Shown piece after piece: positions 46,872 to 49,800 of a stretch of 64,000 nucleotides of DNA (within the stretch, counting starts at the first letter, position 1; every line of letters begins with the position of its first letter). The notes under the pieces were generated by a model, which was not told the origin of the DNA, did not search any database, and was given only the letters and a program-made list of their open reading frames with translations. Position numbers and translations under genes: made by a program. Source of the DNA: an uncultured Coriobacteriia bacterium (lineage in GTDB: Bacteria; Actinomycetota; Coriobacteriia; Anaerosomatales; PALSA-660); assembly GCA_963726435.1 (NCBI GenBank), contig CAVSCJ010000001.1:18786-82785 (forward strand), written 5' to 3'.

Positions 46872-49800
46872 CTACTCGGCGAGCTTGGCGTGCTGCCCGC
46901 AGTAGTCGGAGTCCTCACGCGCCTTCTTGGGACAAGGCTTGCCGTTCTTCATGACCGCCTTGCACAGACCGTCCGTGATCGACAGACCTTCGTGCGTGCG
47001 GCAGTACCGGCTGCCCTCGAGTGCCTTGTTGCGACACCGGGCTCCCGTGCCGGTCGTTGCCAGGCAGCGGTCCTCGTCGTCCTCGGCCTCGACCGGCTCG
47101 GCGACGGGGCGCTCCTCGGGGAGCACCAGGTCTGCGGCCACGTCCTCTTCCTCGTCCAGCGCCGGCACGATAGAGGCGACGTCGAAGAACTCCACGTTCG
47201 TCATCGGAAGGTCGCGCAGTATGGAGGCAGCCTCCTCCGGCGTGTAGCCGTCCTCGATGAGAGCCTGCGGAGACGGCAGCATCTTCTCGAGCTCCTTGAG
47301 CTCGTCCGGCGCGAAGTCCGGCAGCGGCCCGCGGCTGTCCTCGACGTTCCACTCCGCCGACTGGCCCTTGTAGGTCAGCCGCACGCCGCGGTAGCGCCTC
47401 ATGCCCGTGGCAGCTGGGATCAACTTGCCGATGATGACGTTCTCCTTCAGGCCGAGGAGGTTGTCCTCCTTGCCCGAGATGGCTGCGTCGGTAAGCACCC
47501 GGGTCGTCTCTTGGAAGGAGGCCGCCGAGAGGTAGGAGTCGGTGGCGAGAGAGGCCTTGGTGATGCCGAGGAGTATGGCCTCCGCCCTGGCGGGCTCCCC
47601 CCTTGCCGCAGTCACTCTGTCGTTCTCGTCGGCGAACACGAAGCGATCCACGAGTTGGCCGGGCAGGAAGTCCGTGTCGCCGGAGTCCAGCACGGTGAGC
47701 TTGCGCATCATCTGGCGGGCGATGACCTCGATATGCTTGTCGTTGATGTCGACGCCCTGTGACGCGTACACGTCCTGTACCTCGGCGACGATGTACGTGA
47801 GCACGTCCGTCTCGCCGCGCAGCTCGAGAAGATCGTGTGGGTTGACGGAGCCCTCGGTCAGCTGCTGCCCCGCGACCACGGTCATGCCGTCCGCCACTCC
47901 GGGGCGCAGGCGTGCGCGGCGCGACACCGTGTAGCTCTTGTCGTGGCCCTTGTCATCGTGGACGGTGAGCTTGCGGGTCTTGTCCGCGTCTTCGATCACC
48001 AGGATGCCGCTGATCTCCGCGAGGATCGCCTGGCCCTTGGGGCGCCGGGCCTCGAAGAGCTCGGTGACGCGCGGGAGGCCGTGGGTGATGTCCTCGCCTG
48101 CGACACCGCCCGTGTGGAAGGTTCGCATCGTGAGCTGGGTGCCCGGCTCGCCGATCGACTGGGCCGCGATGATGCCGACAGCCGTACCGATGTCGACGGG
48201 GCGGCTCGAGGCCAGGTCCCAGCCGTAGCACTTCTGGCAGACGCCGTACTTGGCGCGGCAGGTCATGACCGCGCGCACGCCGACGTCAACGACGCCCAGA
48301 GCACGCCAAGATTCCAGTTCGGCGTCGTTGACGACGTAGTCGCCGGCCTTCTTGATCGCCTTGCCCGTCTTGGGATCGGCCACGTCGCGAAGGAGGCACC
48401 GTCCGACGAGGTTGTGATTGACGCGGTCGCCGCCCTTGGGGTCGGCCACCGCGAGCGTGACGCCCTGCTCGGTCTCGCAATCGGCCTCGCGGACTATGAC
48501 GTCCTGGGCGACGTCGACCAGGCGGCGAGTCAGATAGCCCGAGTCGGCGGTGCGCAGGGCAGTGTCGGCCAGTCCCTTGCGGGCGCCATGCGTCGAGATG
48601 AAGTACTCGAGCACCGAGAGGCCCTCGCGGAAGTTCGCCTTGATCGGACGGTCGAGGATCTCGCCCTTCGGGTTCGCCATGAGGCCTCGCATACCGGCCA
48701 GCTGGCGGATCTGCTTGATGTTACCGCGCGCTCCCGAGTAGGCCATCATGTAGACGGGGTTGAACTTGTCGAAGTTGGCCGCCATAGCCTCTCCGACGTC
48801 TTCGTTCGCCGCTGTCCAGACGTCGACGATCTGGCGATGGCGCTCGTCCTTCGTGATCAGTCCGCGCTCGTATTGCTTCTCGATGCCCGCGACCCTGTCG
48901 TCCCCGGCGGCGAGTATGGACGCCTTCTGCTCGGGGACGACGACGTCGTAGACAGACACGGTCACGCCGGCGCGAGTGGCGTAGTGGAAGCCCAAACGCT
49001 TGACCTCGTCAAGGATCCTCGCCATCTCCGTAGTGGAGTAGCGGTTGGATGCGTCCTCGACGATGCGGGAGATGCCCTTCTTGTCGATCTCGTGATTGAC
49101 GAACGCGTGGTCGGCCGGGAGCGAGCGGTTGAACGTGATGCGTCCGACAGTGGTGGTCAGGCGCGATCCGGCCTTGTGTTCCTCCTGGACACCCAGGGCG
49201 GTCTCGACCATCAGGTCGCGGTCCAGGCGCACCTCTATGCGCGCCTGCAGGTCCACGGACCGGTTGTCGTAGGCGAGCACCGCCTCCCCCGGGCTGTAGA
49301 AGGCGCGGCCCTCCCCGTGCAGACCCTCGCGCTCGGATGTGAGGTAGTAGACGCCTATGACCATGTCCTGCGTCGGCGTGGCCAGCGGGCGCCCGTGGGC
49401 CGGAGACTTGATGTTGTTGACCGACAGCATCAGGATGCGCGCCTCCGCCTGCGCCTCGACCGACAGCGGCAGGTGGACGGCCATCTGGTCGCCGTCGAAG
49501 TCGGCGTTGAACGCGGTGCAGACCAAGGGGTGAAGGCGGATGGCCTTGCCCTCCACGAGCACCGGCTCGAAGGCCTGGATGCCGAGACGGTGCAGGGTCG
49601 GTGCGCGGTTGAGCATCACTGGGTGGTCGCGGATGACCTCCTCCAGCACGTCCCACACGATCGGGCGCGCGCGGTCGACCATGCGCTTGGCGCTCTTGAT
49701 GTTCTGCGCTTGGTCGAGGTCGACGAGGCGCTTCATCACGAACGGCTTGAAGAGCTCGAGAGCCATGACCTTGGGCAGGCCGCACTGGTGGAGCTTGAGC

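What the first reader, a model, noticed from the sequence alone, without database searches (positions are those of the whole stretch)
46872..47380. RNA polymerase beta' with two tandem C-x9-C-x10-C-x2-H zinc-finger-like repeats on an acidic tether
Seen: after the conserved end of RpoC ([13 protein letters not shown]) the same ORF continues for about 165 aa. A D/E/P-rich linker leads to [26 protein letters not shown] and [26 protein letters not shown], two basic repeats with identical Cys/His spacing. Known: this spacing is that of the C3H finger in the DNA-binding WRC domain of plant GRF factors, and it resembles DUF5763-type fingers. Model bacterial beta' subunits have no such module. Inference: the core polymerase may carry a built-in nucleic-acid-binding appendage. 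No frameshifts are visible in this part of the window.
Basis: partly seen in the sequence, partly recalled or inferred. Interest (0 to 1): 0.78.

Follow-up and report, generated by a model that had tools for sequence, protein, structure and literature searches.

The report
RNA polymerase beta-prime with tethered zinc fingers
In one group of uncultured Coriobacteriia the largest RNA polymerase subunit ends in two zinc fingers on a flexible acidic tether, where all other sampled relatives carry an extra alpha-CTD-like domain, so these polymerases have swapped one built-in accessory binding module for another.

Summary
rpoC (window 46872-51146, minus strand, 1424 aa) continues 172 aa past the conserved beta-prime end. 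The tail has a conserved 60-aa segment, then a 47-aa acidic linker (net charge -16) predicted to be disordered. It ends in two basic C-x9-C-x10-C-x2-H fingers.

All eight Cys/His are invariant in 32 different relatives. Within the genus, the fingers are the most constrained part of the tail (dN/dS 0.09 against 0.25 for the linker). Contigs from independent peat runs bridge the junction without indels.

New context:
- In the other 16 families of the order, and in 5 of 5 families sampled from the rest of the class, the same tether ends in an alpha-CTD-like helix-hairpin-helix domain. The fingers are therefore a derived replacement.
- The same finger ends NusA across much of Actinomycetota and ends ribosomal protein bL21 in several families.
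- The closest solved fold is the DNA-binding CCCH finger of Mcm10, a weak match.

Best reading: a tethered, zinc-dependent nucleic-acid-binding module. Binding itself is untested. I found no description of it in print.

The parts
46872..51146 (-). rpoC, RNA polymerase beta-prime, 1424 aa including the tail. It lies in the usual rpoB-rpoC-rpsL-rpsG-fusA-tuf order.
   Evidence: ORF list and translation. Pfam Rpb1 domains 1-5. NCBIfam PRK14906 and the neighbouring genes.
47391..47429 (-). Last universally conserved beta-prime motif ([13 protein letters not shown], aa 1240-1252). The appendage starts after it.
   Evidence: Position computed. The TIGR02386 rpoC profile ends at residue 1253.
47211..47390 (-). 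Conserved first part of the tail (aa 1253-1312). The model shows a beta-hairpin and three short helices. It is also present in relatives whose tail ends in the HhH domain.
   Evidence: Many invariant columns in alignment A1. Secondary structure and pLDDT 55-66. Same segment in HhH-type tails. No PDB fold match above Z 2.8.
47070..47210 (-). Acidic, proline-containing linker (aa 1313-1359), predicted to be disordered. Its length and sequence vary between relatives.
   Evidence: 17 D/E against 1 K/R, net -16; linker length 17-80 aa in 25 two-finger tails. pLDDT below 50 for tail residues 62-103. Poorly aligned, gap-rich columns. dN/dS 0.25 within the genus.
46992..47066 (-). Zinc finger 1, C-x9-C-x10-C-x2-H (C1361, C1371, C1382, H1385).
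   Evidence: Pattern match. Ligands invariant in 32 of 32 tails. pLDDT 86-90. Pfam zf-TRM13_CCCH and WRC partial hits fall here.
46965..46991 (-). Short connector between the fingers. It contains the nearly invariant T-D-G and is modelled as a short helix.
   Evidence: Invariant D and G and nearly invariant T in A1/A2. Helix at residues 30-35 of the module model.
46890..46964 (-). Zinc finger 2, C-x9-C-x10-C-x2-H (C1395, C1405, C1416, H1419). This is the better DUF5763 match.
   Evidence: Pattern match. DUF5763 best stretch at aa 1394-1421. Best stretch of the PDB profile hit to Mcm10. Ligands invariant.
46872..46889 (-). Last five residues (AKLAE) and the stop codon.
   Evidence: Translation. 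Contigs of runs X1 and X2 cover 46872-46955.

Best explanation
The beta-prime subunit of this organism carries a permanent accessory module at its C-terminus. It consists of a conserved 60-aa stalk, a roughly 47-aa strongly acidic disordered tether, and two tandem basic CCCH zinc fingers of the DUF5763 / Mcm10-ZnF type.

Shown here:
- The module is real, in frame and under purifying selection.
- It is confined to one set of related families of uncultured Coriobacteriia.
- It sits exactly where beta-prime of all other sampled Coriobacteriia carries an alpha-CTD-like helix-hairpin-helix domain. It is therefore a derived swap of one small binding domain for another on the same tether.
- The same finger type ends NusA and, in several families, ribosomal protein bL21.

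Inferred:
- Each finger binds one zinc ion through its three Cys and one His.
- The pair acts as a flexibly tethered nucleic-acid-binding head, much as an alpha-CTD does.
- The beta-prime C-terminus lies next to omega, and omega touches the KH domains of NusA in the E. coli paused complex. A tether of this length would therefore let the fingers reach the nascent RNA leaving the exit channel (my odds about 0.3) or nearby upstream or single-stranded DNA (about 0.25).
- The acidic tether may shield the basic fingers until a nucleic acid displaces it.
For: Reality and selection:
- One ORF.
- All 8 ligands invariant in 32 of 32 different tails from five families.
- 36 of 37 two-finger loci in named records are in frame with RpoC.
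- Independent contigs bridge 46944-47442 without gaps.
- Pooled NG86 dN/dS within the genus (7 sequences): fingers 0.09, linker 0.25, first part of the tail 0.23.

Fold:
- Fingers are modelled at pLDDT 86-90 and the linker at below 50.
- The best PDB match by profile (E 0.08) and by Foldseek (32 columns, rmsd 1.5 A, 41% identity, prob 0.92, E 0.55) is the CCCH finger of the Mcm10 internal domain.
- A review says that finger forms one DNA-binding surface with the OB-fold and prefers ssDNA (PMC5333062, passages).

Family: DUF5763 at 30.7 bits (cut-off 26.3) and zf-TRM13_CCCH at 28.4 bits (cut-off 20.9) on the isolated module.

Module swap:
- Tails from three sister families pass Pfam RNA_pol_A_CTD at 27.9, 34.4 and 32.3 bits against a cut-off of 23.8.
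- Four of 5 tails from other orders also pass; the fifth scores 23.1.
- In the survey of 146 genomes of the order, a second alpha-CTD hit occurs in 16 families. It is lacking in the 9 families that have RpoC fingers.
- 15 more non-finger tails were read directly, and all show the HhH motif.
- The beta-prime HhH aligns with the organism's own RpoA alpha-CTD at 33-41% identity. The Arg, Asn and Gly-x-Lys positions are kept.

Other carriers of the finger are RNA-binding proteins:
- NusA in 4 of 4 genomes checked in the class and in 8 of 9 sampled elsewhere in the phylum.
- bL21 in 5 of 5 fetched.
- In 5 near-complete genomes the finger occurs only in RpoC and in one NusA-sized frame each.

Geometry:
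- Omega contacts the C-terminal part of beta-prime (PMC3985657, introduction passage).
- Omega contacts NusA KH1/KH2 (PMC5842316, passages).

Charge: the fingers are +4 and +3, and the linker is -16.
Against: - No experiment or computation here shows zinc, DNA or RNA binding.
- The Mcm10 match is statistically weak because the domain has only about 30 residues. Pfam zf-primase (17.4 against 28.8 bits) and WRC (22.2 against 28.6) are below their cut-offs.
- In Mcm10 the finger works together with an OB-fold, which is absent here.
- Alpha-CTD, the replaced domain type, is also a protein-docking site, so replacement does not by itself point to nucleic acid.
- The geometry argument is carried over from E. 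coli and Thermus structures.
- The strongly acidic tether would repel nucleic acid.
- RNA cannot be told from DNA with the data in hand.
Confidence: 0.55

Rival explanations
1. The fingers are a protein-docking module. They recruit or hold a partner on the polymerase, such as NusA, the alpha-CTDs, a sigma or another transcription factor. They would take over the docking role of the alpha-CTD-like domain they replaced.
For: - In E. coli the alpha-CTDs dock NusA: alpha1-CTD with AR2 and alpha2-CTD with the NTD (PMC5842316, passages).
- NusA in these bacteria ends in the same finger where E. coli NusA has its alpha-CTD-binding AR2.
- The ancestral beta-prime module is an alpha-CTD paralogue.
- A review says the Mcm10 internal domain, which holds the related finger, also mediates protein contacts (PMC5333062).
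Against: - No partner is identified.
- The finger also sits on ribosomal protein bL21 behind a basic Lys/Ala-rich linker. That fits RNA contact better than a transcription-specific partner.
- The finger surfaces are basic.
Confidence: 0.2
2. The appendage has little or no specific function. It would be a neutral domain accretion, a zinc store, or a solubility or stability tag on beta-prime.
For: - C-terminal tails of beta-prime vary between lineages.
- A 2024 survey of beta and beta-prime architecture simply masked such extensions (PMC11515920, passages).
- The number of fingers varies: one in 3 families, two in 6.
Against: - The fingers are the most constrained part of the tail (dN/dS 0.09).
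- All ligands and several other positions (Gly, Arg-Tyr, Asp-Gly) are invariant over five families.
- Every sampled member of the class keeps some folded module on this tether. That argues the position is functional.
Confidence: 0.1
3. Artefact: a misassembly, a chimeric contig, or read-through of a real stop joins an unrelated small zinc-finger gene to rpoC.
For: - One relative (G031, locus L034/L050) has the two fingers out of frame with rpoC.
- The window comes from an assembly of 7 contigs estimated 92% complete.
Against: - The fusion is in frame in 32 different tails and in 36 of 37 public two-finger loci from many studies.
- Contigs assembled independently from two peat runs span the junction with no indel.
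- Selection acts on the fingers in this frame.
Confidence: 0.02

Closest known systems
C-terminal domain of the RNA polymerase alpha subunit (alpha-CTD, Pfam PF03118)
   Same: It is a small independently folded binding domain held on the polymerase by a flexible linker. A paralogue of it occupies exactly this position on beta-prime in all other sampled Coriobacteriia. It is therefore the functional slot that the fingers took over.
   Different: The fold and chemistry differ: helix-hairpin-helix, no metal. It is carried by alpha, not beta-prime, in all model bacteria. The window's tail has no PF03118 match. The organism keeps its normal alpha-CTD on RpoA, at window 26556-26765.
CCCH zinc finger 1 of the Mcm10 internal domain (PDB 3EBE, 3H15; Pfam zf-primase PF09329)
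   Same: It has the same Cys/His order and nearly the same spacing. It is the best match in the PDB both by profile and by fold: 32 columns, rmsd 1.5 A, 41% identity. It contributes to ssDNA and dsDNA binding (PMC5333062).
   Different: It is a eukaryotic replication factor with a single finger packed against an OB-fold. The scores are below significance (E 0.08 and 0.55; Pfam 17.4 against 28.8 bits). Here two fingers stand alone on a tether.
DUF5763 (PF19067) and the related CCCH models zf-TRM13_CCCH, zf-C3Hc3H and WRC
   Same: The isolated module passes the DUF5763 and zf-TRM13_CCCH cut-offs.
   Different: DUF5763 has no known function, and no paper in the library mentions it. WRC and zf-C3Hc3H are below their cut-offs. 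None of these families is described as part of an RNA polymerase subunit.
C-terminal acidic repeats AR1/AR2 of E. coli NusA
   Same: They are an optional C-terminal add-on of a core transcription protein that works through the alpha-CTD (PMC5842316). In Actinomycetota the NusA C-terminus carries the same finger type as this beta-prime.
   Different: AR1/AR2 are helix-hairpin-helix repeats without metal. Their partner is known, whereas the partner of the finger is not.

Membership tests
RNA polymerase beta-prime (RpoC) | Full set of Rpb1 domains 1-5 and an equivalog-level match to bacterial beta-prime | tested here: met
   Pfam PF04997, PF00623, PF04983, PF05000 and PF04998 are all far above their cut-offs. 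NCBIfam PRK14906 scores 2193 bits against a cut-off of 1437.
DUF5763 (PF19067) | Score at or above Pfam's gathering cut-off of 26.3 bits | tested here: met
   30.7 bits for the 68-aa module and 27.8 for the 172-aa tail, over two stretches. The score is only 22.1 when the whole 1424-aa protein is scanned. Precomputed PF19067 hits appear on 7 of 26 close RpoC homologues.
zf-TRM13_CCCH (PF11722) | Score at or above the cut-off of 20.9 bits | tested here: met
   28.4 bits on the module, summed over two stretches. Each stretch covers only profile positions 13-28 of 29. This shows a shared finger motif, not a Trm13 relative.
WRC domain of plant GRF factors (PF08879) | Score at or above the cut-off of 28.6 bits | tested here: not met
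   22.2 bits on the module and 12.9 on the whole protein, covering profile positions 3-30 of 43.
zf-C3Hc3H (PF13891) | Score at or above the cut-off of 27 bits | tested here: not met
   24.4 bits, though the match spans both fingers (profile positions 4-62 of 62).
Mcm10 / primase-type CCCH finger (PF09329) | Sequence score at or above the cut-off of 28.8 bits | tested here: not met
   17.4 bits. The profile search of PDB sequences gives Mcm10 as best hit at E 0.08.
Mcm10 / primase-type CCCH finger (PF09329) | Same three-dimensional fold of the finger | tested here: inconclusive
   Foldseek top hit is 3ebe_A: 32 columns, rmsd 1.5 A, prob 0.92, but E 0.55. The model is predicted, not solved.
Zinc finger in general | Stoichiometric zinc bound by the three Cys and one His | not testable with these tools
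   Only conservation of the ligands and a confident model without metal are available.
alpha-CTD-like beta-prime appendage (PF03118) of other Coriobacteriia | RNA_pol_A_CTD match in the beta-prime tail | tested here: not met
   No PF03118 hit in the window's tail. The only alpha-CTD hit in its genome is RpoA. Sister tails do have the hit.

The most novel reading that the evidence does not exclude
The CCCH finger is a shared address tag of the gene-expression machinery in these Actinomycetota. Placed on beta-prime, NusA and the 50S protein bL21, it would bind one common ligand, either the nascent transcript or a common partner. That would hold polymerase, NusA and the ribosome together. It would be a lineage-specific way of coupling transcription to RNA handling and translation, one that arose by replacing a third, beta-prime-borne alpha-CTD.
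Probability: 0.07. Interest if true: 0.85.

Novelty: new variant of a known kind. Interest (0 to 1): 0.62.

Why it matters
Bacterial RNA polymerase is usually described as having only two mobile accessory heads, the alpha-CTDs. Two things follow from these data.

First, a whole class, Coriobacteriia, carries a third mobile head on beta-prime, and it is alpha-CTD-like. The class includes cultivable gut genera, which carry the HhH version.

Second, one environmental subgroup replaced that head with zinc fingers of the type also found on NusA and bL21. This natural module swap gives a direct handle on what the position is for. The two versions can be compared in vitro for promoter, pausing and termination behaviour.

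It also gives the function-unknown family DUF5763 its first well-defined cellular context. In the genomes searched, that context is three core RNA-handling proteins and almost nothing else.

I found no description of either fusion in the literature searches listed under Tried and rejected. A paper outside the searchable library, for example the 2004 domain-accretion survey of bacterial RNA polymerase that I only recall and did not see, could already mention one of them.

Tried and rejected
- **Complex prediction.** I folded the finger module (alignment A2) with the organism's own RpoA alpha-CTD (alignment A4). The result was 'no answer', score 0.00 against a mark of 0.32, and the controls were not run. 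This counts neither for nor against binding.
- **Fold search of the whole tail.** Against 48,161 PDB representatives the best match had Z 2.8. Nothing was usable for the conserved first 60 residues.
- **Word-based homologue search.** A search with the finger region returned only 26 close RpoC relatives and no names of organisms.
- **ESM Atlas.** The nearest clusters are small hypothetical proteins. Part of them carry DUF5763 and are mostly labelled viral; the top score is 0.91 with recognition below the usual mark. I kept this only as a lead.
- **Phages and viral contigs.** tblastn against 50,697 phage records gave no match. The viral-contig scan gave 4 loci with a single finger inside 168-227-aa frames of unknown function. 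These did not help with function.
- **Second DUF5763 hit in the own genome.** It scores 13.6 bits and lies in a frame that overlaps another ORF, so I treated it as spurious.
- **WRC membership.** Rejected on score.
- **Careful ML tree.** It did not finish in 300 s, so I used the quick tree.
- **Charge script.** The script crashed before printing linker statistics for the HhH tails. That comparison is missing.
- **RNA run X24.** One 105-nt contig lies on 46875-46967. That is too little to claim expression.
- **Earlier-findings index.** It returned nothing in 3 look-ups.
- **Literature.**
  - 'DUF5763': 0 papers.
  - RpoC / C-terminal extension / zinc finger / Coriobacteriia: nothing relevant among the 15 listed.
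  - lineage-specific / helix-hairpin-helix / rpoC / Actinobacteria: nothing relevant among the 12 listed.
  - NusA / zinc finger / Coriobacteriia: nothing relevant among the 12 listed.
  - Coriobacteriia + RNA polymerase + rpoC + C-terminal domain: 0 papers.
  - 'domain accretion': the 2024 BEAN/HABAS paper masks terminal extensions and has no occurrence of zinc, HhH or Coriobacter.
A supplement listing beta-prime architectures could bear on the novelty claim.
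Full report
**1. Observation**

The window holds rpoB (51238-54753), rpoC (46872-51146), rpsL, rpsG, fusA and tuf in a row on the minus strand. rpoC is one open frame of 1424 aa with all five Rpb1 domains.

The last universally conserved beta-prime motif ends at residue 1252, and 172 residues follow it. The tail has three parts.
- Residues 1253-1312 are conserved and are modelled as a beta-hairpin plus three short helices.
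- Residues 1313-1359 hold 17 acidic residues and 1 basic residue. They are predicted to be disordered, with pLDDT below 50.
- Residues 1360-1424 hold two copies of C-x9-C-x10-C-x2-H, with net charges of +4 and +3.

**2. Reality of the fusion**

I collected 32 different two-finger tails from other assemblies: 11 from the window's own family, 18 from family f19, and one each from f6, f7 and f22. They align with all eight Cys/His invariant, together with a Gly in each finger, Arg-Tyr before the third Cys of finger 1, and Asp-Gly between the fingers.

A scan of one genome per species gave 52 loci. Of these, 37 have two fingers, and 36 of the 37 lie in the same frame as the beta-prime motif. The exception is a relative in which the fingers are shifted out of frame.

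Contigs assembled independently from two peat metagenome runs cover 46944-47442 with 8 mismatches and no gap. Others cover 46872-46955. The only indels seen lie in the intergenic stretch 46654-46702.

Within the genus (7 sequences, pooled pairs) dN/dS is 0.09 for the fingers, 0.25 for the linker and 0.23 for the first part of the tail. The fingers are coding sequence under purifying selection.

**3. Kind of finger**

Scanned alone, the 68-aa module passes Pfam's cut-offs for DUF5763 (30.7 against 26.3 bits) and zf-TRM13_CCCH (28.4 against 20.9). It fails zf-C3Hc3H (24.4 against 27), WRC (22.2 against 28.6) and zf-primase (17.4 against 28.8).

AlphaFold2 with the 32-row alignment models the module at mean pLDDT 86. 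The best PDB match is the CCCH finger of the Mcm10 internal domain. This holds both by sequence profile (E 0.08) and by Foldseek (3ebe_A: 32 columns, rmsd 1.5 A, 41% identity, prob 0.92, E 0.55). The statistics are weak because the domain is tiny.

A review states that this Mcm10 finger and the adjoining OB-fold form one DNA-binding surface with a preference for ssDNA (PMC5333062, passages).

**4. The tether is class-wide and the head is exchangeable**

This is the main new result. Tails of sister families that lack fingers end in a helix-hairpin-helix domain instead. That domain passes Pfam RNA_pol_A_CTD at 27.9, 34.4 and 32.3 bits against a cut-off of 23.8.

I surveyed PF03118 over 146 genomes of the order, covering 25 families.
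- Besides RpoA, a second hit appears in 16 families. The ten second hits that the output lists lie in beta-prime-length frames or in cut frames of 617-1484 aa.
- No second hit appears in f1, f6, f7, f9, f18, f21, f22 or f24.
- In f19, 3 of 44 genomes gave two hits. The one listed lies in a 329-aa RpoA-sized frame.

These nine families are exactly the ones whose RpoC carries fingers.
- Two fingers: f1 (11 of 15 genomes; the other four are 65-82% complete), f19 (36 of 44 in one frame), f6, f7, f22, and f18 (frameshifted).
- One finger: f9, f21 and f24.

I read one or two tails directly for 15 of the 16 non-finger families, and all show the HhH motif. Only three of these were confirmed by Pfam.

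Outside the order, all 5 families sampled from the rest of the class have the alpha-CTD-like domain on beta-prime. Four pass the cut-off and one scores 23.1 bits.

The beta-prime HhH aligns with the organism's own RpoA alpha-CTD at 33-41% identity. It keeps the Arg, the Asn and the Gly-x-Lys that, as I recall, correspond to the DNA-contacting residues of the E. coli alpha-CTD. The organism's own RpoA still has its alpha-CTD.

I built a quick maximum-likelihood tree of the last 380 core residues, with 50 rows. Rows left out were seven further f19 loci, one f1 locus with a short core, and the frameshifted locus. The tree puts all 24 two-finger rows on one side of a branch (SH-aLRT 94, below the 95 mark). 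The three one-finger rows are unresolved.

Finger 1 resembles finger 1 across families, and finger 2 resembles finger 2. That fits one tandem duplication before these families split.

The simplest history is this. The alpha-CTD-like head is ancestral for the class. It was replaced by a finger, and the finger was then duplicated. This history is an inference.

**5. Other carriers of the finger**

The second hit in the window's genome is NusA (NusA_N, S1, KH), which ends in one finger of the same spacing. The same holds in 3 of 3 other genomes of the class that I checked.

It also holds in 8 of 9 hits sampled from other classes of the phylum. The ninth lies in a frame with an acyltransferase domain. 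In the phylum sample, 162 of 301 genomes have a finger match; this tally includes eight unpublished genomes. Among the 150 listed matches, frames longer than 1000 aa occur only in five genomes of the window's own order.

A third carrier is ribosomal protein bL21. In 5 of 5 cases fetched, a Lys/Ala-rich linker is followed by the finger. Six more loci of the species scan show the same by motif. The window's own bL21 lacks the finger.

In five near-complete genomes a profile of 40 single fingers finds only RpoC and one NusA-sized frame per genome. The finger is therefore nearly restricted to three core proteins that handle RNA.

**6. Mechanism**

Shown: a conserved stalk, a disordered acidic tether, and two conserved basic CCCH fingers. 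The fingers sit in the slot of an alpha-CTD-like domain and share their type with the C-terminal ends of NusA and bL21.

Inferred:
- Each finger binds one zinc ion.
- The pair binds nucleic acid.
- Omega contacts the C-terminal part of beta-prime (PMC3985657, passage), and omega touches NusA KH1/KH2 in the E. coli paused complex (PMC5842316, passages). The tether would therefore start on the side of the enzyme where the nascent RNA runs along NusA. NusA's own terminal finger would end up in the same region.

I put nucleic-acid binding at 0.55, split about evenly between RNA and DNA. A protein-docking role gets 0.2, no specific function 0.1, and artefact 0.02. The remainder is for things I have not thought of.

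**7. Comparison with what is known, and novelty**

The appendage works like an alpha-CTD, a tethered accessory head, but it is not one. Its finger is a DUF5763 member and resembles the Mcm10 finger. It is not a WRC domain.

I found no paper describing zinc fingers or an alpha-CTD-like domain on beta-prime, or a zinc finger on NusA or bL21, in the searches. The 2024 survey of beta and beta-prime architecture masked terminal extensions. Subscription journals and supplements were not searchable.

I rate this a new variant of a known kind. It would be surprising to a transcription specialist and directly testable, but its function rests on inference and the finger-bearing organisms are uncultured.

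Noticed in passing
L040, L041, L042, L099-L103, L108-L127 (RpoC tails of other Coriobacteriia): Beta-prime of every non-finger family sampled in the class ends in an alpha-CTD-like helix-hairpin-helix domain on the same acidic tether. Pfam RNA_pol_A_CTD is above its cut-off in 7 of the 8 tails scanned. This amounts to a third alpha-CTD on the polymerase. I found no description of it in print.
   Followed up: yes
L033:1834-2964 (-) = G000 contig 6; also L104-L106, L139-L143, L145-L147: NusA ends in one finger of the same type, in the window's own genome and widely in Actinomycetota. In some other classes the last spacing is C-x4-H instead of C-x2-H.
   Followed up: partly
L128-L132 (G016, G029, G036, G035, G025): Ribosomal protein bL21 carries a Lys/Ala-rich extension that ends in the same CCCH finger. 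This occurs in families with either type of beta-prime tail.
   Followed up: partly
L133:1000-1926 (-) = G000 contig 6: The window genome's own bL21 frame runs 309 aa without a stop. After the Lys/Ala-rich part it becomes Arg/Ser/Pro-rich, which looks like out-of-frame reading of the next gene. A frameshift or a lost stop is possible. There is no finger.
   Followed up: no
L034 / L050 (G031 contig 6): In this relative the two fingers lie in a 206-aa frame shifted against rpoC, whose own frame runs on into an Arg/Pro-rich tail. This is either an assembly error or a real frameshift. G284 also shows the tail split over two frames.
   Followed up: partly
L099, L102, L103 (gut-type Coriobacteriales RpoC tails): After the alpha-CTD-like domain these tails continue for about 100 more acidic residues. 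They include a conserved short motif (LSQLL-x-MVF-x-PD).
   Followed up: no
L135-L138 (viral contigs); ESM Atlas clusters: Single fingers of the same spacing occur in 168-227-aa proteins of unknown function on viral contigs. One of these is a giant-virus bin. Small DUF5763-like proteins in the Atlas are mostly labelled viral.
   Followed up: partly
window 47211-47390 (-): The first 60 residues of the tail are conserved across the order whatever the head domain. They have no Pfam or PDB match (best Z 2.8) and may be a docking stalk of their own.
   Followed up: partly
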